64,000 nucleotides of DNA from Thermoplasmata archaeon (GCA_034667685.1 JAXDQU010000079.1:33891-97890); one strand, 5' to 3'; numbered from the stretch's first letter, positions 483-56,372 are shown. Numbers and translations are program-made. Notes: a model not told the origin generated them from the letters alone.

Positions 483-566
483 TCGACGTGTCGAACGCGG
501 GGCTCGGGGCTCTGGACTCAGGGCTCGGGGCTCCGGAGCCTTGAGTCCTGAGTCCAGAGCGCCGAG
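483..566. repeat. Long imperfect hairpin made of GGGCTCGGGGCTC-type tandem units (gctctggactcagggctcggggctcc / ggagccttgagtcctgagtccagagc)
   Basis: Inverted repeat seen directly, immediately 3' of the stop of the 569..1372 gene. Member of the window-wide hairpin class. Confidence 0.6.
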
Positions 567-568
567 CC

Positions 569-1372
569 CTACGCGGCGTTGAGCGACACGATCAGCTTCT
601 GCGTGCTCCCGGCCTGGCAGAGCGCGTCGAGCGGGCAGGCGTCGCACATCGCGCGGCTGGCGCGGTAGGGCACGCCGTTGAGGAAGAGGTCGAAGTGGTT
701 GACCGCGTCCAGGATCTCGGGCGTGAGCTGGTACTGGTCGCCCTGCTGCGCGAGGAGGCCGTGCTTCGCGAGCAGGTCGAGGCGGTCCTTGACGAACTCG
801 CCGTACTGCCAGCTCTGCGCGATCTTCTCCCACTTCCTGGCGCCCCAGCGCGTGCTCGTGTACTCGGCGCCGTGCGCGCGGCCGTACATCTCGACGAAGT
901 CGCGCGCGCCGAAGGGCTGGCTCCCCTTCGCCTGGAAGACACGGTACAATTCCAGGTTCATCGAGAGGTCGTCCGCCGTCTGCCGGTGGAGGCGCATGAA
1001 GCTGCACACCTCCCAGTGCTTGACCGGGAGCTTCCAGCGGTAGGTGTAAGCGTCGCGCAGCCCCTTGCCAAGCAGCTCGACGACGCCCAGCTCGTGGAGG
1101 TGCGCGAGCTTCTCGCGGACCTTGTGGCTCGTGAAGCCGTAGAACTCCGCGCTGCACCCCGCGCGGCTGCCGCCCTCCGAGACGAAGAGGTGGTTGGCCT
1201 TCCGGCTCGTGAAGCGCCCGACCTCCAGCTTCAGCTCCTGGTCGAGGATCAGGCTGCGGCCGCGCACGAGCGTCGTGAGGAAGGAGTCGTGGACGGTCCC
1301 GTAGACGTGGAGCTTCAGCGCCGCGAAGAACGCCTTGTCCGTGCTGAACTCGTCGACGGGAATAGCGTCCAA
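569..1372 (-). CDS. Hypothetical protein, 267 aa, no family recognised. The C-terminus has a C-x2-C-x5-C motif
   Basis: Long ORF with protein-like composition (MDAIPVDEFSTDKAFFAALKLHVYG...CDACPLDALCQ) and normal local GC. Confidence 0.5.
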   Translation of the reverse strand: MDAIPVDEFSTDKAFFAALKLHVYGTVHDSFLTTLVRGRSLILDQELKLEVGRFTSRKANHLFVSEGGSRAGCSAEFYGFTSHKVREKLAHLHELGVVELLGKGLRDAYTYRWKLPVKHWEVCSFMRLHRQTADDLSMNLELYRVFQAKGSQPFGARDFVEMYGRAHGAEYTSTRWGARKWEKIAQSWQYGEFVKDRLDLLAKHGLLAQQGDQYQLTPEILDAVNHFDLFLNGVPYRASRAMCDACPLDALCQAGSTQKLIVSLNAA

Positions 1373-1429
1373 CCTAGGCCCAGCGCTCCAGGATCGCCCG
1401 ACGCTTCCTGGCGCACTTGAAGGTTGTCC

Positions 1430-1675
1430 TCATCGCCAGAAGGAGTACTGCTCGACCAGCCGCCCGAGGCCCTGACGCTGCTCCGGCGTGATCGTCTTCG
1501 CCTCGAGCTTCTCGTCGAGGAACTGCTGCGCGTCGGCCGTGCTCTGGCGCGCGCCGCGGGCGAAGATCCCTTCGAGGAACGCGCGGACGTTCTGCTCGTC
1601 CATCCCGCCCGGGTTGCGCGCGAGCATCGCCTTCGCGTCGTGCATGAAGTGCGCCTTGCGCCCCTGCGCCATCAT
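1430..1675 (-). CDS. Small hypothetical protein, about 81 aa counted from the internal Met MMAQGRKAHF
   Basis: C-terminal half of ORF 1430..1786. The N-terminal part is Pro/Gly/Arg-rich and low complexity, so a later start was chosen. Confidence 0.25.
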   Translation of the reverse strand: MMAQGRKAHFMHDAKAMLARNPGGMDEQNVRAFLEGIFARGARQSTADAQQFLDEKLEAKTITPEQRQGLGRLVEQYSFWR

Positions 1676-1834
1676 CCGCTTGCGCGGCGTGCCCCCGCGC
1701 GGCCTCTCCTCTCCCCCGAACCGCGGCGGACCACGAGGCGCGCTGCCGTACGGAGGAGGTCGAGATTGGCCGGGCGGAGTGCTCACGAGGGGCGGTGATG
1801 TCTGGCGCGGGATAAAGGCTTCTGGAGCCTCGTC

Positions 1835-3103
1835 CTACTGCGGCGCGACGCCGAGAATGATCTCGGTGATGCCCTCCGGCTGCCAGTCGACGAGGCTGCG
1901 TCCGTCGAGAAGGATCGCGCCGTCCGACGTGGGGACGCGCCCGACGGCGGGAAGGAGCTCGGCCCCTCCGCGTGACCACGCGGGCGGGAGGTTGCCCAGC
2001 CCGAGCGCGAGCATGCCAAGATTTCGATAGCTCGTGGCGCCGGTCCCGTTGAACGAGAGGTGGGCCACGACCTCGCCGTCGACGACGGTCAGGACGCGGA
2101 CGCGGCTGGCCGGGGCTCCCGTTCCGGCGTCGGCGCCGCCGGAGCGGTCCCCGTCGGCCGCGCCGTCTCGCGTCCATGCATGCCACTGGGCCACGGGATC
2201 GCTGCTGGCAGCCCCGATCTGCACGATGCCGAGGAAGGTCAGATCCGGCAGGGCGGTCCCTTCGATCGATTCCGTCGCCGTGGGAGGCGGATCCAGGCCC
2301 GTGCGCGGCGTCCCGAAGCCGGCGGAGGCGGCGGACGTCTGCGTCGAGACCTCGAGCCAACGGCCCGCGTGGGAATCGAACTCCACGCGGTGGGCGGACG
2401 CGACGTTCAGGACGCTGCTGGCGAATTCGGAGAGGCCGAGCGGCGGGTCCGCGCGCGCGCTCACGAAGGAGAAGAACGAGGCCGCGGGCTGCGCGCTCGC
2501 GTTTCCGACGAACCGGATGCCGAGAGCGAAGCTGACGTTGCTGGGCCAGCGCAGGACGGCGTTCGCGCCCCCCTCGCCCCGGAGAAGGAAGCCGACGTCG
2601 AGGCTGACCGGGTCGCCGTCGCTCAGGTGGCGCGCCGGGAATTCGAGGATCGCAGGCGCGAAGTCCGGCGTCACCTGCGCGATGGAGGCGAGCCCCGCTT
2701 GGGCGCCGCGAACCGTGGCCGGGACGGACTCCGCCACGCCCAGGGGAACGGGATGCCCCGCGCCGTCGGCGCGGAAGAGCGCGAGCGTCCAGCCCTCGAC
2801 GTGGTCGCGGTCCGGCGGCACGGGGAACGTCGGCGCGACCTCGATGCGGAGGACCGGGCCTCTCGCGGAGGGCACGATGGCGCCCTGCGGAACGTGGACC
2901 TCAAGCACGTCCGAAGGGAACGGCCCGCTGCCCACCAGCGAAAGCACGATCGAATCGTCGAGCGCGGGATGGTCGTTGAACGGCCGTGCATGGACCCTGG
3001 CCAGGAACATGGAGGCCTCCGTCGGCGTGAGACGGCCCGGTCCGGGTGCGACGGCGCACCCTGCCAAGGCCACGAACGCCAGGACCAGCCCGAGTCGCCG
3101 CAT
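1835..3103 (-). CDS. Lipoprotein, hypothetical. Signal peptide MRRLGLVLAFVALAGC with a lipobox
   Basis: ORF 1835..3127. The second Met gives a canonical lipoprotein signal peptide with LAGC. Confidence 0.6.
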   Translation of the reverse strand: MRRLGLVLAFVALAGCAVAPGPGRLTPTEASMFLARVHARPFNDHPALDDSIVLSLVGSGPFPSDVLEVHVPQGAIVPSARGPVLRIEVAPTFPVPPDRDHVEGWTLALFRADGAGHPVPLGVAESVPATVRGAQAGLASIAQVTPDFAPAILEFPARHLSDGDPVSLDVGFLLRGEGGANAVLRWPSNVSFALGIRFVGNASAQPAASFFSFVSARADPPLGLSEFASSVLNVASAHRVEFDSHAGRWLEVSTQTSAASAGFGTPRTGLDPPPTATESIEGTALPDLTFLGIVQIGAASSDPVAQWHAWTRDGAADGDRSGGADAGTGAPASRVRVLTVVDGEVVAHLSFNGTGATSYRNLGMLALGLGNLPPAWSRGGAELLPAVGRVPTSDGAILLDGRSLVDWQPEGITEIILGVAPQ

Positions 3104-3145
3104 GCCCTTCCCGTCTCGCCAAGACATTCCGATCCGGCCTGAACG

Positions 3146-3853: not shown

Positions 3854-3915
3854 GCGGAGAGAGAGCGTCCGCGCGAGCAAGGCTGTTACTCGCCCGCACC
3901 CGCGAAGATGCGATC

Positions 3916-5753: not shown

Positions 5754-5925
5754 TGCAACCAGTCTCCTTGCGGCCGGGGCGCTGGGTGGCTCGGTCGGCC
5801 CATCGAAGGGCGGCTTTGCCGTGCCCTGGCGGCACGCTGCGCTACACGGGGTCGCTACATGAACGTTCCGCGCGAGGCGCGGCCTAGCCACCAACGTTTT
5901 GCGCGGCAAGCGCTTCCGACCCGCC

Positions 5926-8348: not shown

Positions 8349-8373
8349 GGGGCGGCGATGCCCGGGCGCCTGT

Positions 8374-9216: not shown

Positions 9217-9241
9217 GCGGCGCGAGACGGAGGGCCGGATT

Positions 9242-9847: not shown

Positions 9848-9904
9848 CGGGCCTGACCTCGTCGCAAGGGATCATAAGGCTGAGGGGCGGGCCGAGCCGG
9901 ACGA

Positions 9905-11725: not shown

Positions 11726-11840
11726 CCGGCGAAGGGAACTGGGGAAGAAGGGAAGGCGAGGGAAGAAGGGAGCCTTGCAATGGGGCCCTTCTTCCCTCCG
11801 CTTCCCTTCTTCCCCAGTTCCGCCGCTTCCCTTCGGCGGG
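11726..11840. repeat. Long hairpin of about 115 nt with stems built from GGGAAGAA/GGGAAGG units
   Basis: ggaactggggaagaagggaaggcgagggaagaaggga ... cccttcttccctccgcttcccttcttccccagttcc. It lies between divergent terC and rps10. An AT-rich TTATATGG box follows at 11872-11882. Confidence 0.7.
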
Positions 11841-12006
11841 CTCCCCCCGCCTCCCCGCGAATCGTTATATGGGGGTCCTGGCATCGCCGCGGCAGCGCGA
11901 GCACGCGCGTCCCCGGACGCACGGCGCGGTGAAGACCCCTCGGGGCCCCATCCCGCGCACGACGCCCCGAGCCCCGGACGCGGGACCTCGCGCCGAAGGA
12001 ATCGTC

Positions 12007-12318: not shown

Positions 12319-12650
12319 GCCGCAGCGAAGGCCGAAGAACGGTCTCGATAGGCCGGACCGAAGTCCGGCCGTGTCGAGATCGTCCTGCGCACCTGAAATC
12401 CCATGCTCGGGTCCGGCTGGGGCTCCGCCCCAGACCCCGCGATGCGGAGCGCGCGGAGACAGCCTGACACATTCACCTCGTCCGTCGCGGCCTCCGCGCG
12501 CCTCGCATCGCGGTCCAGGGCGGAGCCCTGGCTGCCCGTCTGGACGCCGGCCCTGCGCTCCATTCTTCATCTCCCCTGTCGATTCCCGCCGAGTCGGACG
12601 AGGGACGTGAGGCGACATTTCATATCGAGGACGCGACGCACTTCCGCCGC

Positions 12651-14539: not shown

Positions 14540-14812
14540 ATGCCGCGCGCGGCGACCTCCGGAGGAGATTCAAGCCAACCTCGTCGGCCGAGGAAGGACG
14601 TGGCCAGCGTCATGAAGAAGGTCCGCGTCACGCCGCAGGAGGCGCGCACCCTCGCCCGCCTCGCGAAGCGCCAACGGAAGACGGAGAGCCAGGTCCTGCG
14701 CGAGGCGCTCGCGCGCGCGGACCTGCTGCAACGGCGCGCTGAGGCCGTCGAGAAGCTCATCGCCATGATCGAGGACCCCAAGCCCAAGCGCGTGCCGTGG
14801 GGCCTCCGATGA
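14540..14812 (+). CDS. vapB: Ribbon-helix-helix (CopG/VapB-like) antitoxin
   Basis: KKVRVTPQEARTLARLAKRQRKTESQVLREALA is an RHH fold. An alternative start at the Met of MKKVRV (14612) is possible. Confidence 0.6.
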   Translation: MPRAATSGGDSSQPRRPRKDVASVMKKVRVTPQEARTLARLAKRQRKTESQVLREALARADLLQRRAEAVEKLIAMIEDPKPKRVPWGLR

Positions 14813-15174
14813 GGATCGTGCTCGACACGGGCGTGTTCTTCCGTCCCGCCGTGCTGCGCGAGCTGGCCGCCGCCGAGGACGCGGACGTCGTCGTGCCCGC
14901 GGTCGTGCTCGCCGAGCGCAGGCGGCAGCTCGCGCTCGCGGGCCGGCGCCCCGAGGAGCTGCTGGAGATCCTGGAGGGCAACGGCTTCGCGATCGAGCCC
15001 TTGGGCCGCGACGAGGCGATGCGCGTTCCGCTCGCCGACGACGCGCGGTGGCGCCGGCACGCGCGCGACGCCCTCATCGCCTCGCACGTGGGACCGGTCG
15101 ACGTGCTCTGGACGACGAACCCGCGCGACTTCCTCGCGTTCGGGCTCGCGCCGGCGCAGGTGCGCGGCGTCTAG
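14809..15174 (+). CDS. vapC: PIN-domain ribonuclease toxin VapC
   Basis: MRIVLDTGVFF...ADVVVPAVVLAE...LWTTNPRDF: PIN domain with acidic residues. ATGA overlap with the antitoxin. Confidence 0.75.
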   Translation: MRIVLDTGVFFRPAVLRELAAAEDADVVVPAVVLAERRRQLALAGRRPEELLEILEGNGFAIEPLGRDEAMRVPLADDARWRRHARDALIASHVGPVDVLWTTNPRDFLAFGLAPAQVRGV

Positions 15175-15204: not shown

Positions 15205-15300
15205 GAGGTTTTTCTTTTCATTTTCTGCGTGGCGCTCCGCTTTCCGCCATCACGCCAAGACGCCAACAGACCGCGTGTTGGCGTCTTGGCGTGATGACGG
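15205..15300. terminator. Bidirectional terminator region: a T-tract (GGTTTTTCTTTTCATTTTCTG) followed by a perfect 21-bp stem hairpin (15248-15296)
   Basis: T-rich runs are the archaeal termination signal. The hairpin catcacgccaagacgccaaca / tgttggcgtcttggcgtgatg lies between convergent vapC and a minus-strand small ORF. Confidence 0.6.
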
Positions 15301-15407
15301 CAAGGGGAGCCGTGGCCCATCAGGCATTCCTCGCCGCGGAAGGGCGGACGTCGGGCGCAACCACGGGGGAATCCTGCGCGACTGCGACAGAGGTTGTGAA
15401 ACAGATT

Positions 15408-22488: not shown

Positions 22489-22570
22489 CCCGTGGCGCCC
22501 GAGGGACCCGAGGCGCCCGAGGCCTCCAAACCACGGGTGCCACGGGCGCCTCGGGTCCCACGGGCGTGGC
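22489..22570. repeat. Hairpin made of CCCGAGG/GGCGCC units, immediately after the 20893..22473 stop
   Basis: cccgtggcgcccgagggacccgaggcgcccgaggcc ... gtgccacgggcgcctcgggtcccacgggcg. Confidence 0.65.
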
Positions 22571-23692: not shown

Positions 23693-23752
23693 GAGGGAAG
23701 ACGGGAAGACGGGAAGACGTTGGAACGAATGTCTTCCCGTCTTCCTGTCTTC
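23693..23752. repeat. Hairpin (GGGAAGAC)x3 ... (GTCTTCC)x3, immediately after the ltaE stop
   Basis: gggaagacgggaagacgggaagacg ttggaacgaat gtcttcccgtcttcctgtcttccc. Confidence 0.7.
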
Positions 23753-23817
23753 CCTGCTCCGCCGGAGGCGGCCCGCACTACAAGAAACGCTAAGAGCCCG
23801 GCGCGGGTGCGAAACGC

Positions 23818-25380: not shown

Positions 25381-25393
25381 GCGCCCCCGTTGG

Positions 25394-25481
25394 CTCCGCA
25401 TGCGGAGACGCGGAGAGCGCGGAGGCCGCGGAGGTTGAAGGCACCGCGGTCACCGCGTCCTCCGCGCCTCCGCATGCGGAG
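25394..25481. repeat. Palindromic element of the CTCCGCATGCGGAG family (copy 1), after the paralog B stop
   Basis: ctccgcatgcggagacgcggagagcgcggaggccgcggagg ... cgcggtcaccgcgtcctccgcgcctccgcatgcggag. A second copy is at 43037-43127. Confidence 0.7.
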
Positions 25482-25535
25482 CCCGTCGAGGCGCCAAAAG
25501 AGCCTTAGCGGAAGCCCAGCCTGGCGCGGCGTAGC

Positions 25536-32527: not shown

Positions 32528-32698
32528 CGCGCATCTCCCACGTCGTCTTCTTCACGAACGCGTCCATGGAGCCCTTCCGCTCGCACCCTTTTTGCGCGAG
32601 CGCGCAGCGCTCGCGCAAAAAGCGCGCCCGGAAAGCGGGCTACTTGCCCCGCATCTCCCACGTCGTCTTCTTCACGAACGCATCCATCGAGCCCTTCT
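32528..32698. repeat. Direct duplication of about 50 bp of the FadB-like gene's 3' end, flanking a perfect palindrome TTTTTGCGCGAGCGCGCAGCGCTCGCGCAAAAA
   Basis: cgcatctcccacgtcgtcttcttcacgaacgcgtccatggagcccttc occurs at 32528-32577 and again, with one change, at 32649-32698 where it is the true C-terminus. Confidence 0.65.
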
Positions 32699-34570: not shown

Positions 34571-34683
34571 GCCAGGTGGGCCAAGTGGCGCCACGTGCGC
34601 CAGGTGGCCCGCATGGCCCACCTGTGCCACCTGGCCCACCTGGCCCACCTGGCGCACCTGGCGCACCTGGCGCACCTGGCAGA
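34571..34683. repeat. Palindromic array of 9-bp units: (CCAGGTGGS)x4, centre, then (CACCTGGCS)x7
   Basis: gccaggtgggccaagtggcgccacgtgcgccaggtggcccgcatggcccacctgtgccacctggcccacctggcccacctggcgcacctggcgcacctggcgcacctggc. It lies between the FadB-like start and tRNA-Cys. Confidence 0.75.
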
Positions 34684-34872
34684 ACAATCCTCCAGCCGGG
34701 TCCCGGCGCTTCGTGCAAGCGGCGCGTCAGGGGGTCCAGGGGGCCGCAGCCCCCTGGCGCGGGGGTGCAGGGGGGCGCGTAGCCCCCCTGCCACGGAGTG
34801 CCACGCCGAGGCGGAGTCGGCGCGCCAGCGCCGACGCAGCACGAGGCGTGGCACGAAGTGCGGGAAGAAAAA

Positions 34873-43015: not shown

Positions 43016-43036
43016 GACGTCGCCCTCCGACCCAGT

Positions 43037-43127
43037 GCTCCGCATGCGGAGACGCGGTGCGCCGCGGAGGTCGCGGAGTCCGAGAGGCGCCGCGGTCCCC
43101 GCGCGCTCCGCGTCGCCGCATGCGGAG
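43037..43127. repeat. Palindromic element of the CTCCGCATGCGGAG family (copy 2), inserted in the lysY-lysZ intergenic spacer
   Basis: gctccgcatgcggagacgcggtgcgccgcggaggtcgcggagtcc...gcgctccgcgtcgccgcatgcggagc. The first 20 nt are identical to the 25394 copy. Confidence 0.7.
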
Positions 43128-43148
43128 CCGCGAAGCGTGGAAGCGCGC

Positions 43149-46183: not shown

Positions 46184-46184
46184 C

Positions 46185-46346: not shown

Positions 46347-46424
46347 GGGCACACCGGTCGACGGATTTCGCAGCCATGTTGCTGGAATCCGACTTGCGAG
46401 GCGCCGAAAGCGTAGGCTCGATAT

Positions 46425-46465
46425 GTAGTTTTGGCCGATTCCAGGGATTTGGCTGCGACCCTCGC
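46425..46465. promoter_or_regulatory. AT-rich divergent promoter region (CGATATGTAGTTTTGG) between lysW (-) and the DNA ligase (+)
   Basis: The only AT-rich patch in a 228-bp divergent spacer. Confidence 0.3.
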
Positions 46466-46573
46466 GCCCGGGTCGGAGTTTCGCCCCACCCCCCGCCGCT
46501 CCGCCAAGCTGCCGGCCCTTGTGCGAGAATCGTATTCGCGGCTTCGGCGCCGCGGAGCACGGGGAAGACCGGC

Positions 46574-47902
46574 ATGACCGACCGCTTGCAGGCGACCCAG
46601 CGGCGCCTCGCCAGCCAGGGGCAGTTCACGCTGCGCCACCGCGCGGCCGCCCCCTTCGCGTGGACGCTGACGCTGGAGGGCGAGCACGGCGCCGCGACGT
46701 GGGCGCTGCCCGCCGGCGTGCCGTGGGCGGAGGGGGAGACGCGCCCCGCGACGAGCCGCGACGAGCCCCCCGAGCCCCCGCCCGAGTGGGACGCGGGGCG
46801 CTACGCGATGCGCCAGGGCGAGCTCGTGCTCGCGGGCCGCCGCGTGCTGGGGCGCTACCGGCTGGCGCACGAGCGCGGCGTGCAGTGGCGCCTGACGCGC
46901 CTCGACCCGGCCGAGGTCAAGCCGATGCCGGAGCGCGTGCTGCCGATGCTCGCGCACGCGGCGGCCTACCCCGCGGACGAGGAGCGCTGGGCCTTCGAGA
47001 TCAAGTGGGACGGCATCCGCGCGCTCGTGCATTCGCACGATGGACGAGTCAAGGTCCACACGCGCACGCTCCAGGACGTCACGTCGCAGTACCCCGAGCT
47101 GCGCTGCGTGGGCGAGAGCCTGGCGGGCAGGCAGGCGATCCTCGATGGCGAGGTCGTCGCGTTCGACGACGCCGGGCGGCCAAGCTTCCAGCGCCTCCAG
47201 GGCCGCCTCGGCCTTGGATCGATAAGCGCCGTCGAAGAGAAGCGCCGGGAGGTCCCGGTGGCGTACGTGGCGTTCGACATCCTCTACCTGGACGGACGCG
47301 ACCTGACCGGGCACCCGTACGCGGAGCGCCGCGGAATCCTCGAAGGCCTCGGCCTGGAGGGCGGCGCGTGCCGCGTCTCGCAGGCCGTGGTGGGAGACGG
47401 GCACGCCATGCTCGCGATCCCCGGCATCGAGGGCATCGTGGCGAAGCGCCTCGACTCGCCCTACGAGCCGGGGGCGCGAAGCTCGCTCTGGCGCAAGATC
47501 AAGCTCCAGCGCAGGCAGGAGCTCGTGATCGGCGGATACACGCCGGGCCGCGGCGCCCGCGCGGGCCGCATCGGCGCGCTCCTCCTGGGCGTGCACGACG
47601 CGCCGCCCGACGAGGCCCGCGAGCGCGGCGCGCCCCAACGCCTGCTCTACGCGGGCAGCGCGGGCACCGGCTTCACCGAGGAGGAGCTGGCGCGGCTGCG
47701 CTCGCTCCTGGAGCCGCTGCGCCGACCCTCCTCGCCCTTCGCGAACGCGGTGGACAAGAAGGACGCCGTGTTCGTGGAGCCGCGCCTGGTCGCCGAGCTC
47801 GAGTTCACCGAGTGGACCGGCTCGGGGCGCCTGCGCCATCCGTCCTACAAGGGGCTGCGCTTCGACAAGCAGGCGCAGGACGTCGTGCGCGAGGAGATGT
47901 GA
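46574..47902 (+). CDS. ligD: ATP-dependent DNA ligase (LigD ligase domain, NHEJ)
   Basis: FEIKWDGIRAL (KxDG adenylation motif I), then later motifs. Start taken at the internal ATG (MTDRLQATQRRL). Confidence 0.8.
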   Translation: MTDRLQATQRRLASQGQFTLRHRAAAPFAWTLTLEGEHGAATWALPAGVPWAEGETRPATSRDEPPEPPPEWDAGRYAMRQGELVLAGRRVLGRYRLAHERGVQWRLTRLDPAEVKPMPERVLPMLAHAAAYPADEERWAFEIKWDGIRALVHSHDGRVKVHTRTLQDVTSQYPELRCVGESLAGRQAILDGEVVAFDDAGRPSFQRLQGRLGLGSISAVEEKRREVPVAYVAFDILYLDGRDLTGHPYAERRGILEGLGLEGGACRVSQAVVGDGHAMLAIPGIEGIVAKRLDSPYEPGARSSLWRKIKLQRRQELVIGGYTPGRGARAGRIGALLLGVHDAPPDEARERGAPQRLLYAGSAGTGFTEEELARLRSLLEPLRRPSSPFANAVDKKDAVFVEPRLVAELEFTEWTGSGRLRHPSYKGLRFDKQAQDVVREEM

Positions 47903-47951
47903 GATCATTCCCGCCCGCTCGATCTGGAAAGGCTCGCTGAGCTTCGGCCTC

Positions 47952-48698
47952 GTGAACGTCCCCGTGCGCGTCGTGACCGCGCAGCGCAGCAAGGACGTCC
48001 GCTACCACCAATTGCACGACGCCGACGGCGCGCGCATCCAATACAAGAAGGTGTGCAGCGCCGAGGGCGCGGAGGTCGAGGCCGAGCACATCGTCAAGGG
48101 GTGGGAGGCCGGGGGCGGGGCCTACGTGACCGTCACCGACGAGGAGCTCGCCAAGCTCGACCCCCAGAAGAGCGAGACGATCGACATCCAGGACTTCGTG
48201 CACCTCGAGGAGATCGACCCGCTCTACTTCGAGAAGGGCTACTGGCTCGTCCCCGACAAGGGCGCCGGGAAAAGCTATCGCCTCCTGGTCGAGGCCATGC
48301 GCAAGTCGGGGCGCGTCGCCATCGCGCGCGTCGTGATGCGCGGCAAGGAGAGCCTCGTCGCGGTGCGCGCGGTGGGCGACGTGCTCGCGATGGAGACGAT
48401 GCTCCACGGCGACGAGCTGGTGCCGCAGGAGGACCTGGAGGTGGCGCAGGCCGCCGCGCCCGGCGAGCGCGAGCTGGACATGGCCGAGAAGCTCATCGAC
48501 GCGCTCACCACAACCTTCGAGCCCGAGAAGTATCCCGACGAGCATCGCCAACGCGTGCTCGCCTACCTGGAGAGCAAGGCCGAAGGGCGCGAGGTCGTGC
48601 TGCCGCCCAAGGCGGAGGCGCGCCGGCCCGCGGACCTCGTCGACGCGCTCCAGAAGAGCCTCGAGGCCGCGCGGCGCAAGGGCAAGGCGGAAGGATGA
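47952..48698 (+). CDS. ku: Ku DNA end-binding protein. The true start is probably about 48 nt upstream
   Basis: The conserved Ku N-terminal motif RSIWKGSLSFGLVNVPV is encoded in frame at 47913-47963, upstream of the first GTG (47952), with no ATG/GTG/TTG before it. Confidence 0.85.
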   Translation: MNVPVRVVTAQRSKDVRYHQLHDADGARIQYKKVCSAEGAEVEAEHIVKGWEAGGGAYVTVTDEELAKLDPQKSETIDIQDFVHLEEIDPLYFEKGYWLVPDKGAGKSYRLLVEAMRKSGRVAIARVVMRGKESLVAVRAVGDVLAMETMLHGDELVPQEDLEVAQAAAPGERELDMAEKLIDALTTTFEPEKYPDEHRQRVLAYLESKAEGREVVLPPKAEARRPADLVDALQKSLEAARRKGKAEG

Positions 48699-49594
48699 AG
48701 GTCGCGATCCAGGGCCAGCAGGTGGAGCTGTCGAACCTCGACAAGGTGCTCTATCCGCAGGCCGCCTTCACGAAGGCGCACGTCATCGACTACTACCGGC
48801 GCGTCTCCCCCGCCCTCCTGCCCCACCTGCGCGATCGGCCCGTGACGCTGAAACGATATCCCGACGGCGTCGAGGGGAAGTTCTTCTACGAGAAGTCGTG
48901 CCCGCCCTACCGCCCGGCGTTCGTGCGCACGGCGCCGGTCTGGAGCGAGGGGCGCGGCGAGGACATCGACTACTGCGTGCTCGACACGCTGCCCGCGCTC
49001 GTGTGGGCCGCGAACCTCGCCGACCTGGAGATGCACACGTTCCTGCACACCGCGCCCGACGTCGCGCGCCCCCACGCGCTCGTCTTCGACCTCGACCCGG
49101 GCCCGGGGACCGACATCGTGGACTGCGCGCGGCTCGGCCTGCGCGTGCGCGACCTCTTCGAGGGCTTCGGCCTCGCCTGCCTCGCCAAGACGTCGGGCAG
49201 CAAGGGCTTGCAGGTGTACGCGCCGCTCAACACCCCCGCTTCCTACGAGGAAACGAAACCGTTCGCGCGTGCCGTGGCCGAGATGCTGGAGCGCGAGACG
49301 CCCGCGACGGTGACGAGCAACATGAGCAAGGCCGAGCGCGCGGGCCGCGTGCTGGTCGACTGGTCGCAGAACGACGCCCACAAGACGACCGTGTGCGCCT
49401 ACTCGCTTCGCGCCAAGGCGCAGCCGACCGTCAGCACGCCCGTCACGTGGGAGGAGATCGCGCGCTGCGCGTCGGAGGGCAAGGCGGACCTGCTGCGCTT
49501 CCTGACGGAGGACGTGCTGGAGCGCGTGGAGACGCACGGCGACCTGTTCCGGCCCGTCCTCGACCTCGAGCAGGCGCTGCCGGCGCTTGCCTAG
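48695..49594 (+). CDS. LigD polymerase/primase domain (stand-alone PolDom)
   Basis: KFFYEKS...LVFDLDPGPG...SGSKGLQVYAPL: archaeo-eukaryotic primase fold of NHEJ PolDom. ATGA overlap with ku. Confidence 0.85.
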   Translation: MKVAIQGQQVELSNLDKVLYPQAAFTKAHVIDYYRRVSPALLPHLRDRPVTLKRYPDGVEGKFFYEKSCPPYRPAFVRTAPVWSEGRGEDIDYCVLDTLPALVWAANLADLEMHTFLHTAPDVARPHALVFDLDPGPGTDIVDCARLGLRVRDLFEGFGLACLAKTSGSKGLQVYAPLNTPASYEETKPFARAVAEMLERETPATVTSNMSKAERAGRVLVDWSQNDAHKTTVCAYSLRAKAQPTVSTPVTWEEIARCASEGKADLLRFLTEDVLERVETHGDLFRPVLDLEQALPALA

Positions 49595-49595
49595 A

Positions 49596-49671
49596 CGACA
49601 CAGGAAGGGGAGCAAGGGGACGCAAGAAGCTCCTGAGACCACCTTGCTTCCCCTTGCTCCCCTTCCTGTGT
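49596..49671. repeat. Hairpin gacacaggaaggggagcaagggga ... tccccttgctccccttcctgtgtc, after the PolDom stop
   Basis: Near-perfect stem of about 30 bp made of GGGGAGCAAG-type units. Confidence 0.7.
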
Positions 49672-49716
49672 CGGAGCGCCGCGCCGACACACTTCATATC
49701 CTTGGCCGACCCGACC

Positions 49717-51141
49717 GCGCGCTCGATGCGCGACGGGTTCTCGGCTGGGGTTTGCGTCGATCTGGGTGCGTTCGATCCGACGCAGGAGGACGCCGGCGCC
49801 GGCGCGTGGCTCTCGCGCGCGCAGGGCGTCCCCACGTGGGTCTGCCTCATGGAGGACCGCCAGCCCGTCTTCTTCCACGAGTACCGGGGCTACGAGCCGG
49901 ACGCCGTCGCGCCGCTCAACCGCCACGGGCCGAACAAGCATGCGTGGCGCCAGGCGGACGTGCGCCGGCTCGTCGCCGCCTTCCACGCGCTGGGCGTGAA
50001 GGTGCTCTACGGCTACTGGCTCCACGAGTGCGCGTGGGTCGACCAGCGCCACCCCGAGCTCCTCATCCGCGACCAGCACGGCGCGCTCTGGCAGGACGAG
50101 GTCGAGATGAACGCCGACTTCTCCCCGCTGCGGCGCCTGCGCGCGGATCCCGAGCACGACGTGCGCGAGGGCGAGCGCTACGCCGCCTGGAGCGCGCGGC
50201 GGTACGCGCAGCTCGCCCGCGACTTCGGCTTCGACGGGCTCTTCCTGGGCGACGGCGGCATGGGCTTCCGGCGTCACGGCAAGGACTGGAAGGACCTGCG
50301 CCACTTCGACTTCCACGAGGACTGGACCGCCGAGCTCGCCGCCGACCACGCGTTCGAGCGGCACGCCGGCTGCAAGGTCGGCTCCGCGGACGCCGAGGAG
50401 CGCGCCCATGATATCAAGGCGCACCACTGGGAGCACTGGGTCGCGTTCAACTGCGAGCGCTGGACCGCGTACTACCGCGACGTGGCGGAGGCCGTGCACG
50501 CGACGGGCGGCGTCCTCGCGGCGTACAACTGCATGAACTACGACCCCGCGCTCGCGCGGCTCCACGGCGTCGACTACCGCGGCATCGCCGAGTCGGGCCT
50601 TGACATCATGGTCTTCCAGGCGTACGACTATGCGTGGGGACCGCTGGGGCCGTTCGGCTTCCTGCACATCGCGCGCAAGGACAACGCGACGAACCTCGCC
50701 GCGCTCCTGCGCACGCGCGCCGCCATCGGCCACGACACGCCCATGCGCCTCGTCGTGACGGTGGAGACGGAGGACGAGGTCGAGGGGTGGGACGCTCCCG
50801 CGTGCCACACGCTGGGCGAGCTGCACGCGCTGGGCCACGCGGTCTCGTACGACGGCGAGCGCTGGCGCCGCGCGGCGGACGGCGCGTTCGTCGTGTGGGG
50901 CAACTCGGTCCCCGCCCCCGAGTGGCGCGGCCTCGCCGACGCCTTCGCGCAGCTCTCCGCCGACCCGCCCGTGCCGGTCGCGTCGATGCGCTACGACGAG
51001 CGCGAGGCGCACGCGCACGCCGCGGACGTGCCCGCCGAGGTCGAGCCGGAGGCGCTCTACGCGCACCTGGACGGCCAGCGCGGCTACGCCATCACGCGCG
51101 TCGCGGCCCCGCCGCTCGCCATCCGGCCCGCGCGGCGCTGA
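49717..51141 (+). CDS. Hypothetical protein, possibly a glycoside-hydrolase-like TIM barrel (GHL10/DUF4015-like)
   Basis: 474 aa, Trp/His-rich (YGYWLHECAWVD, DGLFLGDGG). Weak family assignment. Confidence 0.5.
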   Translation, partial: ARSMRDGFSAGVCVDLGAFDPTQEDAGAGAWLSRAQGVPTWVCLMEDRQPVFFHEYRGYEPDAVAPLNRHGPNKHAWRQADVRRLVAAFHALGVKVLYGYWLHECAWVDQRHPELLIRDQHGALWQDEVEMNADFSPLRRLRADPEHDVREGERYAAWSARRYAQLARDFGFDGLFLGDGGMGFRRHGKDWKDLRHFDFHEDWTAELAADHAFERHAGCKVGSADAEERAHDIKAHHWEHWVAFNCERWTAYYRDVAEAVHATGGVLAAYNCMNYDPALARLHGVDYRGIAESGLDIMVFQAYDYAWGPLGPFGFLHIARKDNATNLAALLRTRAAIGHDTPMRLVVTVETEDEVEGWDAPACHTLGELHALGHAVSYDGERWRRAADGAFVVWGNSVPAPEWRGLADAFAQLSADPPVPVASMRYDEREAHAHAADVPAEVEPEALYAHLDGQRGYAITRVAAPPLAIRPARR

Positions 51142-51144
51142 GAA

Positions 51145-51251
51145 GAGGGGGTTTCAGGGGGCGAAGCCCCCCGACGTCAAGAAAAGACTCTCCTTGTAGG
51201 GCGCTTGCAGGGACGCAGACTTCAGGGGGCTCCGCCCCCTGAAACCCCCTC
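51145..51251. repeat. Hairpin gagggggtttcagggggcgaagcccc ... gggggctccgccccctgaaaccccctc with a loop of about 50 nt. It lies between convergent genes and overlaps the 3' end of the 51154..52173 ORF
   Basis: Inverted repeat seen directly. Confidence 0.7.
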
Positions 51252-52173
51252 TGGCGAGCGCCGCGAGCCCCTCGAGCGTGCCCACGCCGCGCGCGGTCTC
51301 CTTGGCGAGGCTCAGCGCGAGGCGCGGCGCCGTCTCGACGCCCGCGGGCTCGGTGCGCCCCCAGGCCCGCGCCACGAGCGCGGCGGCCGCGCCCGCCAGA
51401 AGCATCGGCTTGCGCGCGAGGAGCGCGCCGCCCGCGAGGAGCAGCGCGGCCGCGGGGACGAGCGCGTCGCGGATGGGCGCGACCGCGCGGTTGCGGCCCC
51501 AGGCGCGCGCCTGCGCCGGGACGTCGTTGCGCGCGTACCAGCGCTGCTTGCGCAGGTAGCCCGCGAGCGTGCCGTCGATCTCGGGCGGGTCATGGAGTAC
51601 GAGGGGGCGCGGGTCCCAGACGACCTCGAAGCCCGCGTCGCGCAGGCGCCAGGCGAGGTCGTAGTCCTCGGCGCAGCAGAGCGTCTCGTCGAAGCCGCCC
51701 ACCGCGAGGATCGCGTCGCGCCGGTACGCGACGTTGCTCGTGATGAAGCCGCGGTAGCGCACGCGCGCGTCGTCGTCCTCCATGCGGCCCAGGAAGGTGC
51801 GGCGGGGCATGCGCAGCGCGCCGCCCACGCCCGTGATCCAGGGCTTCTCGGCGAAGACCTCGGCGATGGCGGTGAGCCAGTCGCGCTCCGGCGCGCAGTC
51901 GCCGTCGGTGAACGCGACGATCGGCGCGCGCGCGCCCAGGACGCCCACGTTGCGCGCCGCGCTGGGGCCGTGGCCCAGGTCTTCGAGCACGCGGATGCCG
52001 CTGGCGCGCGCGATGTCGCGGCAGCCGTCCGTGCTGCCCCCGTCCACGAGCACGACCTCGAAGCGCTCGGGCGGGAAGTCCTGCGCCTCGAGCGCGTCCA
52101 GGCACGCGGGCAGCGTCGCGGCCTCGTTGCGGCACGGGATCACGACGCTGATGGCCGGATCGTCCCCCCTCAC
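51154..52173 (-). CDS. Family-2 glycosyltransferase
   Basis: ISVVIPCRNEAATL...VVLVDGGSTDGC...FTDGDCAPE...CCAEDYDL. GTG start overlapping the HAD stop. The last ~30 codons (GGFRGRSPLKSASLQAPYKESLFLTSGGFAP) are read out of the hairpin element. Confidence 0.7.
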   Translation of the reverse strand: MRGDDPAISVVIPCRNEAATLPACLDALEAQDFPPERFEVVLVDGGSTDGCRDIARASGIRVLEDLGHGPSAARNVGVLGARAPIVAFTDGDCAPERDWLTAIAEVFAEKPWITGVGGALRMPRRTFLGRMEDDDARVRYRGFITSNVAYRRDAILAVGGFDETLCCAEDYDLAWRLRDAGFEVVWDPRPLVLHDPPEIDGTLAGYLRKQRWYARNDVPAQARAWGRNRAVAPIRDALVPAAALLLAGGALLARKPMLLAGAAAALVARAWGRTEPAGVETAPRLALSLAKETARGVGTLEGLAALARGGFRGRSPLKSASLQAPYKESLFLTSGGFAP

Positions 52174-54231: not shown

Positions 54232-54302
54232 CGCGCCCGAGCCTGGTTTCGCGCCGGTCAAGGGTTCCGGCTCAAACGTCGTTGTCACGATGAATGATCG
54301 AG

Positions 54303-54422
54303 TTCCCGATTCCTCTTCCGAGCCCTCTTCCGATTCCCCTCTTCCGATTCCGAGTCCGACGCACGCCTGGCAGGACGCTCGGAATCGGAATCGGAAGAGG
54401 GAATCGGAAGCGGGCTCGGGAA
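54303..54422. repeat. Hairpin made of CCGATTCC/CTCTTCC units, lying between the divergent GT4 and GH15 genes
   Basis: cccgattcctcttccgagccctcttccgattcccctcttccgattccgag ... ctcggaatcggaatcggaagagggaatcggaagcgggctcggg. Confidence 0.7.
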
Positions 54423-54459
54423 CGGTGGCGCTCCGCCCCTCGCGAAACGGGGATAACCC

Positions 54460-56277
54460 GTGCCCACTCACCGCGCGCCCGTGCCCACCACCGCCCGGAG
54501 CCTTCTTGCGACCGTCCGGGAGCGCGCGATCGCGGACCACGGCGCGGTGGGCGACGGGCGCAGCGTCGCGCTGCTCGCCAGCGACGGCACGCTCGACTGG
54601 TGGTGCCCCGGCCGCTTCGACGCGCCCAGCGCGTTCGGCGCGATCCTGGACGCGGAGCGCGGCGGCCACTTCCGCCTCGGGCCCACGGTGGAGGCCGCCA
54701 GCCTGATGCGCTACGTCTCCGACACGAACGTGCTCGAGACGCTCCACACGACCCGCGCCGGGCGCGTGCGCGTCTGCGACTTCATGCCCTTCCCCGACGA
54801 GAGCGGCGTCGAGGACGCGGTGCTCGTCCGCCGCGTGGAGGGCATCGAGGGCACGGTCGAGCTGGCGCTCTCCTTCCAGCCGCGCTTCGCCTACGGGCAG
54901 GTGACGCCGCGCCTCTCGCGCACGCCCGCCGGCCTGCTCGCGCGGGGCGCCGGCGAGATCATGCTGCTCCAGGCGCCCGAGGCGATCTGCGCGCCCGAGG
55001 CCCGCGTCCTGGTCGGCGAGGGCGAGCGCTTCGACGTCATGCTGCGGCACCGGCCCTTCGACGCGCCCGTGCCGTTCGACGCGCCGCTGGCCGCCTCCCC
55101 CGCGCGGCTGGAGGCGAAGACCGTCGCGCGCTGGCGGGCGTGGAGCGCGCAGACGCGCTTCGAGGGCCCCGAGGCGCCCATGGTCCGCCGCAGCGCGCTC
55201 GCGCTCAAGCTCCTCCAGTACGCGCCCACCGGCGCACTCGTGGCGGCGCCCACGACCAGCCTGCCCGAGGGGATCGGCGGCGTGCGCAACTGGGACTACC
55301 GGTTCGCGTGGCTGCGCGACGCGGCGCTCTGCGCGAAGGCGCTCCAGGACGTCGGGCACGCCGAGGAGGCGCAGCGCTTCACGCGCTGGGTCGAGGCGAC
55401 GCTGCGCGACCCGGCCGACATGCGCGTGATGTACACCGTCTCGGGGCAGAGCGACCTCGACGAGCGCGAGCTGCCCCACCTGCGCGGCCACCGCGCCAGC
55501 GCGCCCGTCCGCGTCGGCAACGGCGCGGCCACGCAGCGCCAGCTCGACGTCTACGGCGAATTGCTCGGCTACCTGCGCGAGTCGGGCACCGCCGGCGCCG
55601 CGACGTGGCCCCTGGCGCGCGGCCTGGCCGACCACGTGGCGCGCACCTGGCGCGAGCCGGACAGCGGCATCTGGGAGATGCGCGCCGAGCCGCGCCACTT
55701 CGTGCTCAGCAAGGCGATGGCGTGGGTCGCGCTGACCTCCGCTGCCCAGATGGCGCGCGAGCAGGGGTTCGCCGGTGATATCACGGGCTGGGAGCGCGAG
55801 GCCGACGCGATCCGCGCGCAGGTCGAGCAGCAAGGCGTCGACGCCCGGCTGGGCTTCGTCCAGGCCTATGGCTTCGCCGCGCCCGACGCCTCGAACCTGC
55901 TCCTGCCCATCGTCGGCTTCGTGGACGCGCGCGACCCGCGCATGCTCGCCACGACGCGCGCCGTCCTCGACAAGCTCACCGCCAACGGCCTCGTCTACCG
56001 CTATCACAACGCGGACGGGCTGCCCGGCGGCGAGGCGACGTTCGCCTACTGCACGTTCTGGCTCGTCGAGGTGCTCGCCATGCAGGGCGAGACGCAGCAG
56101 GCGCGCCAGCTCTTCGAGGCGCTGCTCGCCCGCGCGACGCCCCTGGGCCTCTTCGCCGAGGAGATCGACGAGAAGACCGGCGAGCACCTGGGCAACTTCC
56201 CGCAGGGCTTCCCGCACGCGGGCCTGATCGCGGCTGCCTTGGCGCTCAAGCGCGCGGAAAGCTCCGCGCTCCGCTGA
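54460..56277 (+). CDS. Glycoside hydrolase family 15 (glucoamylase/trehalase-like, (alpha/alpha)6 barrel)
   Basis: GVRNWDYRFAWLRDAA...DSGIWEMR...GFVQAYGF. GTG start. Confidence 0.85.
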   Translation: MPTHRAPVPTTARSLLATVRERAIADHGAVGDGRSVALLASDGTLDWWCPGRFDAPSAFGAILDAERGGHFRLGPTVEAASLMRYVSDTNVLETLHTTRAGRVRVCDFMPFPDESGVEDAVLVRRVEGIEGTVELALSFQPRFAYGQVTPRLSRTPAGLLARGAGEIMLLQAPEAICAPEARVLVGEGERFDVMLRHRPFDAPVPFDAPLAASPARLEAKTVARWRAWSAQTRFEGPEAPMVRRSALALKLLQYAPTGALVAAPTTSLPEGIGGVRNWDYRFAWLRDAALCAKALQDVGHAEEAQRFTRWVEATLRDPADMRVMYTVSGQSDLDERELPHLRGHRASAPVRVGNGAATQRQLDVYGELLGYLRESGTAGAATWPLARGLADHVARTWREPDSGIWEMRAEPRHFVLSKAMAWVALTSAAQMAREQGFAGDITGWEREADAIRAQVEQQGVDARLGFVQAYGFAAPDASNLLLPIVGFVDARDPRMLATTRAVLDKLTANGLVYRYHNADGLPGGEATFAYCTFWLVEVLAMQGETQQARQLFEALLARATPLGLFAEEIDEKTGEHLGNFPQGFPHAGLIAAALALKRAESSALR

Positions 56278-56315
56278 TGAGACAGCGGATGCCGGCGCGC
56301 CCCGCGCGGAAAGCC

Positions 56316-56372
56316 ACGGAATCTCCGAATCTCCGAATCACGCCGTAGATTCCGAGATTCGGAGATTCCGTG
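56316..56372. repeat. Hairpin (GAATCTCC)x2 / (GGAGATTC)x2 after the GH15 stop
   Basis: cacggaatctccgaatctccgaatc acgccgta gattccgagattcggagattccgtg. Confidence 0.7.

What the first reader, a model, noticed from the sequence alone, without database searches (positions are those of the whole stretch)
483..56372. Genome-wide class of long intergenic hairpins whose stems are built from short tandem repeats
At least 12 intergenic loci carry 25-50 bp near-perfect inverted repeats: 483-566, 11726-11840, 22489-22570, 23693-23752, 25394-25481, 34571-34683, 43037-43127, 49596-49671, 51145-51251, 54303-54422, 56316-56372, plus a smaller one at 15248-15296. Each arm is itself an array of 6-9 bp units, and the unit differs from locus to locus. 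Examples are (GGGAAGAC)3, (CACCTGGCS)7, (CCCGAGG)n, (GAATCTCC)2, (CCGATTCC)n and (GGGGAGCAAG)n. Most sit directly after stop codons, one lies between divergent genes and one is inside an operon. Archaeal termination normally uses T-tracts rather than long GC hairpins, and this repeat-within-palindrome architecture is not a standard REP, MITE or CRISPR form. It could reflect a slippage or template-switch generating mechanism, cruciform or RNA-stabilising elements, or a protein binding array.
Basis: seen in the sequence. Interest (0 to 1): 0.75.

Follow-up and report, generated by a model that had tools for sequence, protein, structure and literature searches.

The report
Mobile hairpin repeats in an archaeon
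The long GC-rich hairpins between genes are real and over ten times denser than in other genomes, but they look like families of small palindromic insertion elements (akin to bacterial REP/REPIN or MITE repeats) that spread in one soil archaeal lineage and mutate fast, not a conserved new terminator system.

Summary
The window (72% GC, a Thermoplasmatota archaeon MAG) has 13 large hairpins of 63-135 nt: 11 pass a strict score against 0.08 in shuffles, 17 per 100 kb against about 1 per 100 kb in 2 Mb of control DNA. About 10 of 13 have arms made of 6-10-nt tandem units; three are nested palindromes.

The claim that each locus is unique does not hold. 25381 and 43037 are copies (85% over 93 nt). 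51131 and 56298 have homologues at non-orthologous spacers in a relative. Three relatives carry families of their own.

The hairpins are not conserved at orthologous spacers. 51131 is a derived insertion: a 93%-identical relative and an outgroup both lack it, and it rewrote a neighbour's C-terminus. 43037 sits inside the lysY-lysZ junction. Large hairpins occur in tandem, divergent and convergent spacers alike. One 72%-GC relative has none in 17 kb.

Three of four differences among same-population assemblies fall in one hairpin and are templated by the opposite arm or a neighbouring unit.

Best reading: REP/REPIN/MITE-like palindromic insertion elements, remodelled in place by slippage and template switching. 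Any terminator or RNA-stabilising effect is secondary. No mobilising enzyme was identified, and whole-genome copy numbers are unknown.

The parts
483..569 (.). Hairpin element with 35-nt arms made of (CGGGGCT)-type 7-nt units. It abuts the stop codon of gene 569-1372(-).
   Evidence: z -9.4
11726..11840 (.). Hairpin element with 36-nt arms, 94% complementary, made of GGGAAGAA-type units. It lies between the divergent TerC gene and the ribosomal S10 promoter. Other relatives carry unrelated hairpins, or none, in this spacer.
12420..12528 (.). Nested-palindrome element with GGGCTCCGCC...GGCGGAGCCC termini, distantly related to family F1. It starts 101 nt after the S10 stop and is flanked by GGCTG direct repeats.
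15234..15310 (.). Hairpin element with 35-nt arms, (ACGCCAAG)-type units and GCTCCGC...GGGGAGC termini. It has exact CGTGGC flanking direct repeats, sits in a convergent spacer, and follows a T5CT4CAT4 tract.
22489..22570 (.). Hairpin element with period-9 CCCGAGGnn units, starting 15 nt after a stop codon. It holds 3 of the 4 differences seen between same-population assemblies.
23693..23755 (.). Hairpin element with (GGGAAGAC)3 arms, starting 20 nt after the threonine-aldolase stop. Absent from the orthologous spacer of L169; L170 carries an unrelated (family F3) hairpin there.
25381..25494 (.). Family F1 element with a GCTCCGCATGCGGAGC terminal palindrome plus GCGGAGnn units. It starts directly after a stop codon and is homologous to 43037-43128.
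   Evidence: 98.7 bits
32588..32622 (.). Small 16-bp perfect stem flanked by T5 and A5, resembling a bidirectional intrinsic terminator, in a convergent spacer. Probably a different, ordinary kind of hairpin.
34571..34683 (.). Hairpin element with (CCACCTGGn)7 in one arm and a less regular opposite arm. It lies between tRNA-Cys(-) and the start of the fadB-like gene.
34765..34854 (.). Two adjacent smaller hairpins. The first (34768-34790) is CAGGGGGGC-GCGTA-GCCCCCCTG, which resembles the F2 core.
43037..43128 (.). Family F1 element inserted in the lysY-lysZ junction of the lysine biosynthesis operon. In relative L163 those two genes overlap by ATGA.
49596..49673 (.). Hairpin element with 31-nt arms, 97% complementary, made of AAGGGGAGC-type units. 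It starts 1 nt after the LigD PrimPol stop and is absent from L003 and L002.
51131..51265 (.). Family F2 element. Two inverted copies of (GA)CGTC-AGGGGGC-NNN-GCCCCCT-GAAACCCCC surround a 39-nt spacer, a REPIN-like layout. It is a derived insertion absent in L162 and L163, and it encodes the last 31 aa of the convergent GT2 gene.
54303..54422 (.). Hairpin element with TTCCGA/TCGGAA-type units, inserted between two conserved divergent promoter blocks. L002 has about 45 nt there and L003 about 12 nt.
56298..56389 (.). Family F3 element with (GAATCTCC)2.6 arms, starting 20 nt after the GH15 stop. A homologue with one more unit lies after the aldolase gene in L170. The orthologous spacer in L002 is only 41 nt.

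Best explanation
The hairpins are a heterogeneous, multi-family population of small, non-coding palindromic insertion elements (60-135 nt). They are functionally analogous to bacterial REP/REPIN/BIME and MITE repeats, and they have proliferated in one high-GC soil Thermoplasmatota lineage.

Shown:
- They are insertions relative to close relatives.
- Several have homologous copies at unrelated loci in the same genome or in related genomes.
- Their abundance is patchy among relatives.
- They occupy whatever short stretch of DNA is dispensable: stop codon to next promoter, between divergent promoters, gene tails, an operon junction.

Inferred:
- After insertion each copy is remodelled in place. 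Replication slippage between short direct repeats, plus intra-hairpin (quasipalindrome) template switching, would add and homogenise 6-10-nt units and copy changes from one arm to the other. This would give the 'tandem repeats inside a palindrome' look and make the hairpins mutation hotspots.
- Any effect as a partial transcription terminator, RNA 3' protector or supercoil sink is a side effect, or later co-option.

Unknown: how copies move. Candidates are an HUH/RAYT-like enzyme acting on single-stranded hairpins, another transposase that recognises the shared GCTCCGC...GCGGAGC termini, or transposase-free copying by template switching between loci.
For: Families:
- F1: 25381 and 43037, 85% over 93 nt.
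- F2: 51131 and L170:4061-4153. Both arms are homologous, with nested palindromes and CGTC-type heads facing the spacer.
- F3: 56298 and L170:11063-11150. They share GAATCTCCGAATCTCnGAATCAC and differ by one unit.
- L181 638 and 7472: 27/27 identical arm, different loops. L170 9904 and 17081: 22/22. L164 2069 and 4728: 88% over 58 nt.
- 13 of 26 hairpin queries have non-self hits in 204 kb of lineage DNA that exceed every hit in 1.98 Mb of control DNA.

Insertion status:
- Window and L162 flanks are about 100% identical, yet about 115 nt of palindrome replace 18 nt. Outgroup L163 also lacks the element, and the GT2 C-terminus is rewritten.
- The lysY-lysZ junction is expanded from 56 to about 136 nt.
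- The spacers carrying 49596, 54303 and 56298 are short and hairpin-free in L002 and L003, while L002 has its own hairpins in other spacers.
- The TerC-S10 spacer holds three unrelated hairpins in three genomes and none in four others.

Patchiness and density:
- L181 has 4 in 7.5 kb; L180 (71.7% GC) has 0 in 17 kb.
- The window has 17 per 100 kb against about 1 per 100 kb in controls, including 361 kb at 70-80% GC.

Shared motifs:
- GCTCCGC/GCGGAGC is about 10-fold enriched at hairpins and forms the termini of four elements.
- GGGGGC-N3-GCCCCC occurs at 6 sites in 154 kb of lineage DNA against at most 1 in about 2 Mb of controls.

In-place remodelling:
- 3 of 4 differences among same-population assemblies lie in hairpin 22489, and all three are predicted by the opposite arm or by a unit 9 or 18 nt away.
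- Unit number differs between the F3 copies.

Published REP behaviour matches (PMC3733652): less than 20 bp from the upstream ORF end, head-to-head dimers folding into one stem-loop, insertion into small palindromes, and intragenic copies changing protein ends.
Against: - No transposase, RAYT or integrase was found in the window genes scanned, nor in the precomputed Pfam lists for about 200 kb of lineage loci.
- There is no consistent target-site duplication: mean best flanking repeat is 3.3 nt against 3.1 nt at random positions.
- Eight of the 13 window hairpins have no detectable relative in the 204 kb sampled.
- Whole-genome copy numbers are unknown.
- The F2 and F3 cross-genome matches are short (33-72 nt).
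- Tandem sub-repeat arms are not a defining feature of REPs or MITEs.
- The mutation-hotspot evidence rests on one hairpin. Seven other hairpins covered by independent assemblies were invariant, and assembly error at a palindrome cannot be fully excluded.
Confidence: 0.6

Rival explanations
1. Purely local origin. Each hairpin is generated de novo at its own locus by slippage plus template switching (or fold-back synthesis during break repair, for example by the Ku/LigD PrimPol system encoded at 46574-49594), with no movement of sequence between loci.
For: - Most window hairpins have unit sequences with no relative elsewhere.
- The arms are tandem arrays.
- The SNP cluster in 22489 is templated.
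- There are no TSDs and no transposase.
- At 51131 an 18-nt stretch was replaced, not simply interrupted.
- L002's spacer has a CGGAAGA-like seed where the window has the TCGGAA-unit hairpin 54303.
- Template switching is documented to create perfect hairpins (PMC8794818).
Against: - It cannot explain 85-100% identical arms at unrelated loci: F1, the L181 pair, the L170 pair and the L164 pair.
- It cannot explain F2 and F3 being shared between genomes at non-orthologous spacers, all above every control hit.
- The NHEJ genes are also present in L003, which has no such hairpins.
Confidence: 0.17
2. The hairpins are primarily selected functional elements. They would serve as hairpin-type transcription terminators or 3'-end RNA stabilisers that replace oligo-T terminators in a 72% GC archaeon.
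For: - Seven start 0-20 nt after a stop codon and leave 41-64 nt for the next promoter.
- Two of the three non-overlapping convergent spacers carry a large hairpin, and the third carries the small T5/A5-flanked stem at 32588.
- Oligo-T runs are found at only 3 gene ends.
- In Haloferax, hairpins precede 503 transcript ends, and one tested hairpin terminated 59% of transcripts (PMC7237163).
Against: - They are not conserved at orthologous gene ends, even at about 80-93% identity.
- L180, with the same GC content, has none in 17 kb.
- 2 of 8 divergent spacers carry them, the same rate as tandem spacers.
- One sits inside the lysY-lysZ operon junction.
- Two follow, rather than replace, oligo-T tracts.
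- There is no strand asymmetry in G-U pairing.
- Family copies show almost no compensatory changes.
Confidence: 0.13
3. They act at the DNA level as cruciforms or protein-binding arrays, for example supercoil sinks, nucleoid-protein sites or gyrase sites as proposed for BIMEs.
For: - The palindromes are symmetric on both strands.
- The units are periodic.
- Some sit between divergent promoters.
Against: - Unit sequences differ between loci, so no single binding specificity can apply.
- They are not conserved.
- Nothing here tests binding.
Confidence: 0.05
4. They are integron attC sites, or they are assembly artefacts.
For: attC sites are variable imperfect palindromes placed directly after cassette ORFs. 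Palindromes can also arise as assembly errors.
Against: - The flanking genes are syntenic core genes in relatives, not cassettes.
- Hairpins occur in divergent and convergent spacers.
- No integrase was seen.
- Identical hairpins are recovered in independent JGI and Logan assemblies from four samples.
Confidence: 0.02

Closest known systems
REP / REPIN / BIME elements of bacteria (GTAG- and CGTC-tagged palindromic repeats; RAYT-associated)
   Same: - Extragenic palindromes, mostly less than 20 nt after the upstream ORF.
- Dispersed families with patchy distribution between relatives.
- Head-to-head dimers that fold into one long hairpin. Family F2 has two inverted small palindromes with CGTC-like heads facing a 30-40-nt spacer.
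- Insertion into small palindromes.
- Occasional rewriting of protein ends (PMC3733652).
   Different: - The host is archaeal, and I found no archaeal REP/REPIN report in three literature searches.
- Many small families rather than one or two abundant ones.
- Most elements have no GTAG/CGTC tag.
- Arms are built of 6-10-nt tandem units.
- No RAYT identified.
MITEs of archaea and bacteria (Sulfolobus, Halobacterium and Haloquadratum MITEs; Correia, RUP, BOX)
   Same: - Short and non-coding.
- Terminal inverted repeats.
- Multi-copy.
- Intergenic.
- Present or absent between strains.
   Different: - Here the inverted repeats make up almost the whole element.
- No consistent target-site duplication.
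- No parent IS known.
[quoted passage not shown]
   Same: A mobile small repeat whose hairpin resembles a terminator and lies downstream of genes (PMC10969869).
   Different: The large hairpins here have no U-tract. The host is an archaeon. The families are far more diverse in sequence.
Quasipalindrome template-switch mutagenesis and slippage (Ripley-type; PMC8794818, PMC13100816)
   Same: It explains perfected arms, multi-base templated changes, arm expansion, and hotspot behaviour at 22489.
   Different: It is a mutational process, not an element. It does not explain homologous copies at unrelated loci.
Hairpin-associated transcript 3' ends in Haloferax volcanii
   Same: A high-GC archaeon in which a hairpin upstream of transcript 3' ends terminates partially (59%) (PMC7237163).
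   Different: Those hairpins are short and are not reported as dispersed families or as tandem-repeat palindromes.

Membership tests
REP/REPIN (RAYT system) | Short imperfect palindrome present in many dispersed copies per genome | tested here: inconclusive
   The core GGGGGC-N3-GCCCCC occurs at 6 sites in 154 kb of lineage DNA against at most 1 in about 2 Mb of controls. The whole genome was not available, so copy number is unknown.
REP/REPIN (RAYT system) | REPIN layout: two inverted REPs separated by a spacer, folding into one long hairpin | tested here: met
   Family F2 (window 51131-51265 and L170 4061-4153): each arm contains its own 8-bp-stem palindrome, and the two arms pair across a 31-39-nt spacer.
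REP/REPIN (RAYT system) | Conserved GTAG or CGTC head tetranucleotide | tested here: inconclusive
   F2 has GACG/CGTC (one copy CTTC) next to the small palindrome in both genomes. Other families show no consistent tag, and CGTC is frequent by chance at 72% GC.
REP/REPIN (RAYT system) | Cognate RAYT (Y1 HUH transposase) gene flanked by the repeats | not testable with these tools
   None was found in the window or in the Pfam lists for about 200 kb of lineage loci. The rest of the genome could not be fetched.
MITE | Terminal inverted repeats | tested here: met
   All elements are palindromic. Four share GCTCCGC...GCGGAGC termini.
MITE | Target-site duplication of fixed length | tested here: not met
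   Mean best flanking direct repeat is 3.3 nt against 3.1 nt at random positions. Only 15234 (CGTGGC) and 12420 (GGCTG) have clear ones. The 51131 insertion replaced 18 nt.
MITE | Multi-copy, with a parent autonomous IS sharing the ends | not testable with these tools
   Two-copy families are seen in four genomes, but no IS was seen and no whole genome was available.
Bacterial-type intrinsic terminator | GC-rich stem immediately followed by a U-tract | tested here: not met
   None of the 13 large hairpins is followed by a T-run. Only the small 32588 stem has T5/A5 flanks.
Archaeal oligo-T terminator | Run of T residues at the transcript end | tested here: not met
   T>=4 runs are found at 3 gene ends only. 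At 15234 and at L002 12099 the T-tract precedes the hairpin.
Integron attC | Array of promoterless cassettes next to intI/attI | tested here: not met
   The flanking genes are syntenic core genes in relatives. The hairpins occur in divergent and convergent spacers. No integrase was seen.
Integron attC | R''/L''-L'/R' core sites (RYYYAAC...GTTRRRY) with extrahelical bases | not tested
   No attC covariance model was available. Rfam gave no hit at the gathering threshold.
CRISPR array | Identical direct repeats regularly interspaced by unique spacers | tested here: not met
   The repeat and TRF scans show only inverted repeats with internal short tandem units.

The most novel reading that the evidence does not exclude
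An archaeal counterpart of the REPIN world with its own twist: a class of self-expanding palindromes that spread between loci without a classical transposase. Spread would occur by hairpin-primed or template-switch copying at stalled forks or breaks, possibly involving the lineage's Ku/LigD PrimPol genes. Growth would occur by unit slippage that is mirrored onto the opposite arm. On this reading the tandem-repeat-within-palindrome architecture is the signature of the propagation mechanism itself.
Probability: 0.15. Interest if true: 0.75.

Novelty: new variant of a known kind. Interest (0 to 1): 0.5.

Why it matters
If confirmed genome-wide, this would extend REP/REPIN-like hairpin repeats to Archaea, at a density of about one per 4-5 kb in a compact genome.

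It would also give a natural system in which palindrome insertion, arm homogenisation and unit slippage can be watched at population scale.

There are practical consequences:
- The elements reshape spacers, gene ends and an operon junction.
- They probably modulate read-through in a genome that is almost free of oligo-T terminators.
- They break short-read assemblies at predictable points.

It matters less if they turn out to be ordinary low-copy MITEs with a known IS partner.

Tried and rejected
- **Metagenome scan wasted.** The metagenome-contig scan with the aldolase gene returned only hits of <=62% identity, probably bacterial homologues.
- **Viral contigs.** Scans for three family cores gave only unrelated low-GC chance matches.
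- **MFE sliding-window scan.** Too noisy in 72% GC coding DNA to serve as a hairpin caller.
- **Rfam.** Only tRNA-Cys at the gathering threshold. At a lax threshold there was only generic miRNA-precursor noise on both strands.
- **Fourth family.** A proposed family (L193 hairpin and L181 1737, CCGCGGAA units) did not beat control hits and is dropped. The window 34571 to L180:4576 match (41 bits) is borderline and lies in coding DNA.
- **Strand asymmetry.** A test for G-U pairing on the transcribed strand showed no consistent asymmetry.
- **Covariation.** Covariation between family copies is negligible.
- **TSD search.** Negative overall.
- **Control contamination.** The control sets accidentally included my own alignment rows (all three) and, pattern-fetched viral loci. 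This made them conservative. One search repeats the test cleanly.
- **Rejected readings.** attC, CRISPR and assembly artefact were considered and rejected (see rivals).

Full report
**Organism and context**

The window is 70-74% GC throughout. Its threonine aldolase is 100% identical to a protein that NCBI names 'MAG: Thermoplasmata archaeon', on a 108-kb contig. All named homologues of a lineage-specific protein are 'Candidatus Thermoplasmatota archaeon'. Related loci carry archaeal markers: LysW/LysX, Gins51, PriS and ELP3.

I called genes with a codon log-odds model. The calls agree with JGI gene calls on identical contigs.

**Checking the observation**

All twelve claimed hairpins exist.
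- As RNA they fold at -54 to -98 kcal/mol.
- As DNA they fold at -30 to -56 kcal/mol, with z-scores of -5.0 to -11.6, and no shuffle out of 200 does as well.
- An ungapped stem finder gives 11 hairpins at score >=18 against 0.08 in dinucleotide shuffles.
- Density is 17 per 100 kb.

So the enrichment is specific to this lineage and is not a by-product of GC content.

I add three loci: 12420-12528, 34765-34854 and the small 32588-32622 stem.

Tandem units in the arms are confirmed by TRF. An autocorrelation test gives p<=0.014 for 7 of 13, and TRF adds three with variable-length units. Hairpins 12420, 43037 and 51131 are instead nested palindromes.

**Not conserved: they behave as insertions**

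L002/L163 (about 80% nt identity in genes) and L003 (70-79%) are syntenic with window 44-63 kb.
- None of the window hairpins 49596, 51131, 54303 or 56298 has a counterpart there.
- The spacer after GH15 is 41 nt in L002 against 195 nt in the window.
- L002 has its own hairpins in other spacers.

At 51131, the window and L162 (protein 93% identical) have essentially identical flanks. About 115 nt of palindrome replace 18 nt, and the outgroup L163 also lacks the element. The insertion replaces the last 23 aa of the convergent GT2 protein with 31 hairpin-encoded residues.

At 43037, the lysY and lysZ genes overlap by ATGA in L163. In the window the conserved ATGA is separated from the conserved LysZ core by about 136 nt, including the 92-nt hairpin.

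The TerC-S10 spacer holds three unrelated hairpins in the window, L181 and L193, and none in L187, L180, L192 or L183.

L181 (72.4% GC) has four hairpins in 7.5 kb, whereas L180 (71.7% GC) has none in 17 kb.

**Not unique: dispersed families**

| Family | Members | Similarity |
|---|---|---|
| F1 | window 25381 and 43037 | 85% over 93 nt |
| F2 | window 51131 and L170 4061-4153 (a different convergent spacer) | both arms homologous |
| F3 | window 56298 and L170 11063-11150 (after the aldolase gene) | GAATCTCCGAATCTCnGAATCAC, one unit more in L170 |
| L181 pair | 638 and 7472 | 27/27 identical arm, different loops |
| L170 pair | 9904 and 17081 | 22/22 |
| L164 pair | 2069 and 4728 | 88% over 58 nt |

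In F2, each arm has the form (GA)CGTC-AGGGGGC-NNN-GCCCCCT-GAAACCCCC. That is a small palindrome with a CGTC-like head, two of them head-to-head across a spacer. This is the layout of REP head-to-head dimers, or REPINs (PMC3733652).

In a clean control, 13 of 26 hairpin queries have non-self hits in 204 kb of lineage DNA that exceed the best hit of any query in 1.98 Mb of control DNA (40.1 bits).

Shared small motifs recur:
- GCTCCGC/GCGGAGC is about 10-fold enriched at hairpins and forms the termini of 12420, 15234, 25392 and 43037.
- GGGGGC-N3-GCCCCC is about 80-fold enriched in the lineage.
- The 17-mer CTCCGCCGGAGGCGGCC lies directly 3' of two unrelated hairpins.

**Position**

Large hairpins occur in 9 of 32 tandem spacers, 2 of 8 divergent spacers and 2 of 3 non-overlapping convergent spacers. 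In tandem spacers they start 0-20 nt after the stop codon and leave 41-64 nt before the next start. In other words, they fill the only dispensable stretch in spacers that are otherwise 20-60 nt long.

This pattern is what REPs show in bacteria. It does not discriminate between function and tolerated insertion. The divergent-promoter and operon-junction cases argue against an obligatory terminator role. Oligo-T runs are rare, and in two cases the T-tract precedes the hairpin.

**Dynamics**

Nine independent contigs from the same population (four samples) overlap about 41 kb of the window and eight hairpins.
- Only four sites differ.
- Three of them lie inside hairpin 22489, and L168 shares one of the alternative alleles.
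- The alternative alleles raise stability from -71 to -81 kcal/mol.
- All three are predicted by the opposite arm or by the unit 9 or 18 nt away.

This is the signature of quasipalindrome template switching and slippage (PMC8794818). However, it rests on one locus, and the other seven hairpins were invariant.

Family copies differ mostly by one-sided changes, with almost no compensatory pairs, so there is no sign of RNA-structure selection. Contigs in several assemblies end exactly at hairpins.

**Interpretation**

The evidence best fits a lineage-specific expansion of REP/REPIN/MITE-like palindromic insertion elements that are reshaped in place by slippage and template switching.

Not established:
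- the mobilising activity (no transposase seen, no TSD);
- genome-wide copy numbers;
- any RNA-level function.

A partial terminator or 3'-protective effect is plausible by analogy with Haloferax (PMC7237163), but it is probably secondary.

In three literature searches I found no description of REP/REPIN-type repeats in Archaea, nor of palindromic repeats with tandem sub-repeat arms. I therefore rate this as a new variant of a known kind.

Noticed in passing
window 11858-12006: There is a TATA-like box (AATCGTTATATGGGG) followed by a GC-rich, structured leader of about 150 nt upstream of the ribosomal protein S10 gene. It is conserved in sequence across seven relatives (L187, L180, L181, L192, L193, L183) even though the flanking hairpins differ. 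No Rfam family matches it. It may be a ribosomal-protein leader or a small RNA.
   Followed up: partly
window 46574-49594: A complete bacterial-type NHEJ gene set in an archaeon: ATP-dependent DNA ligase, Ku and LigD PrimPol. It is conserved in L002/L163 and L003. It is relevant to fold-back or templated-insertion models, but it is also present in relatives that have few hairpins.
   Followed up: partly
L002, L163, L170, L171, L187, L188 (GCA_021325135.1, Centralia_MAG_189): NCBI titles this MAG 'Proteobacteria bacterium'. Its contigs are syntenic with the Thermoplasmata window, encode LysW/LysX, ELP3 and an HVO-type HTH protein, and have an S10 protein identical to the window's. The label looks like a misclassification.
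   Followed up: partly
window 15232, 15284, 22553, 22574, 51145; L181 7523: Independent JGI and Logan contigs begin or end exactly at, or inside, hairpins. The palindromes fragment short-read assemblies, which may bias MAG completeness and hide such elements.
   Followed up: partly
window 22626-23672: Outside the lineage, the closest homologues of the threonine aldolase are myxobacterial (Archangium, 64-65%) and other bacterial proteins at about 60%. This suggests inter-domain gene transfer.
   Followed up: no
window 23757-23773 and 56376-56392: An identical 17-mer, CTCCGCCGGAGGCGGCC, lies immediately 3' of two otherwise unrelated hairpins. This hints at a mosaic (BIME-like) composition of the repeat loci.
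   Followed up: partly
window 14600-15174: An RHH antitoxin plus PIN-domain toxin pair (VapBC-like). It is followed by a T-rich tract and then by hairpin 15234.
   Followed up: no
window 2089-2178 and 48301-48390: Two strong single-apex hairpins (-65.7 and -62.6 kcal/mol per 90 nt) lie inside coding regions, the second within the Ku gene. I did not examine whether they are chance GC-rich structures or intragenic elements.
   Followed up: no
window 58146-59390: About 1.25 kb with only weak coding signal and no hairpin. The orthologous stretch in L163 has small unannotated ORFs and a DJ-1/PfpI gene. Its content is unresolved.
   Followed up: no
L164 2069-2125 and 4728-4784: A 69% GC relative has its own two-copy family of 27-bp stems flanked by T6 and A5 (CAACCTTTTTT...AAAAAGGTTG). 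These look like bidirectional intrinsic-terminator-like repeats sitting right after genes.
   Followed up: partly
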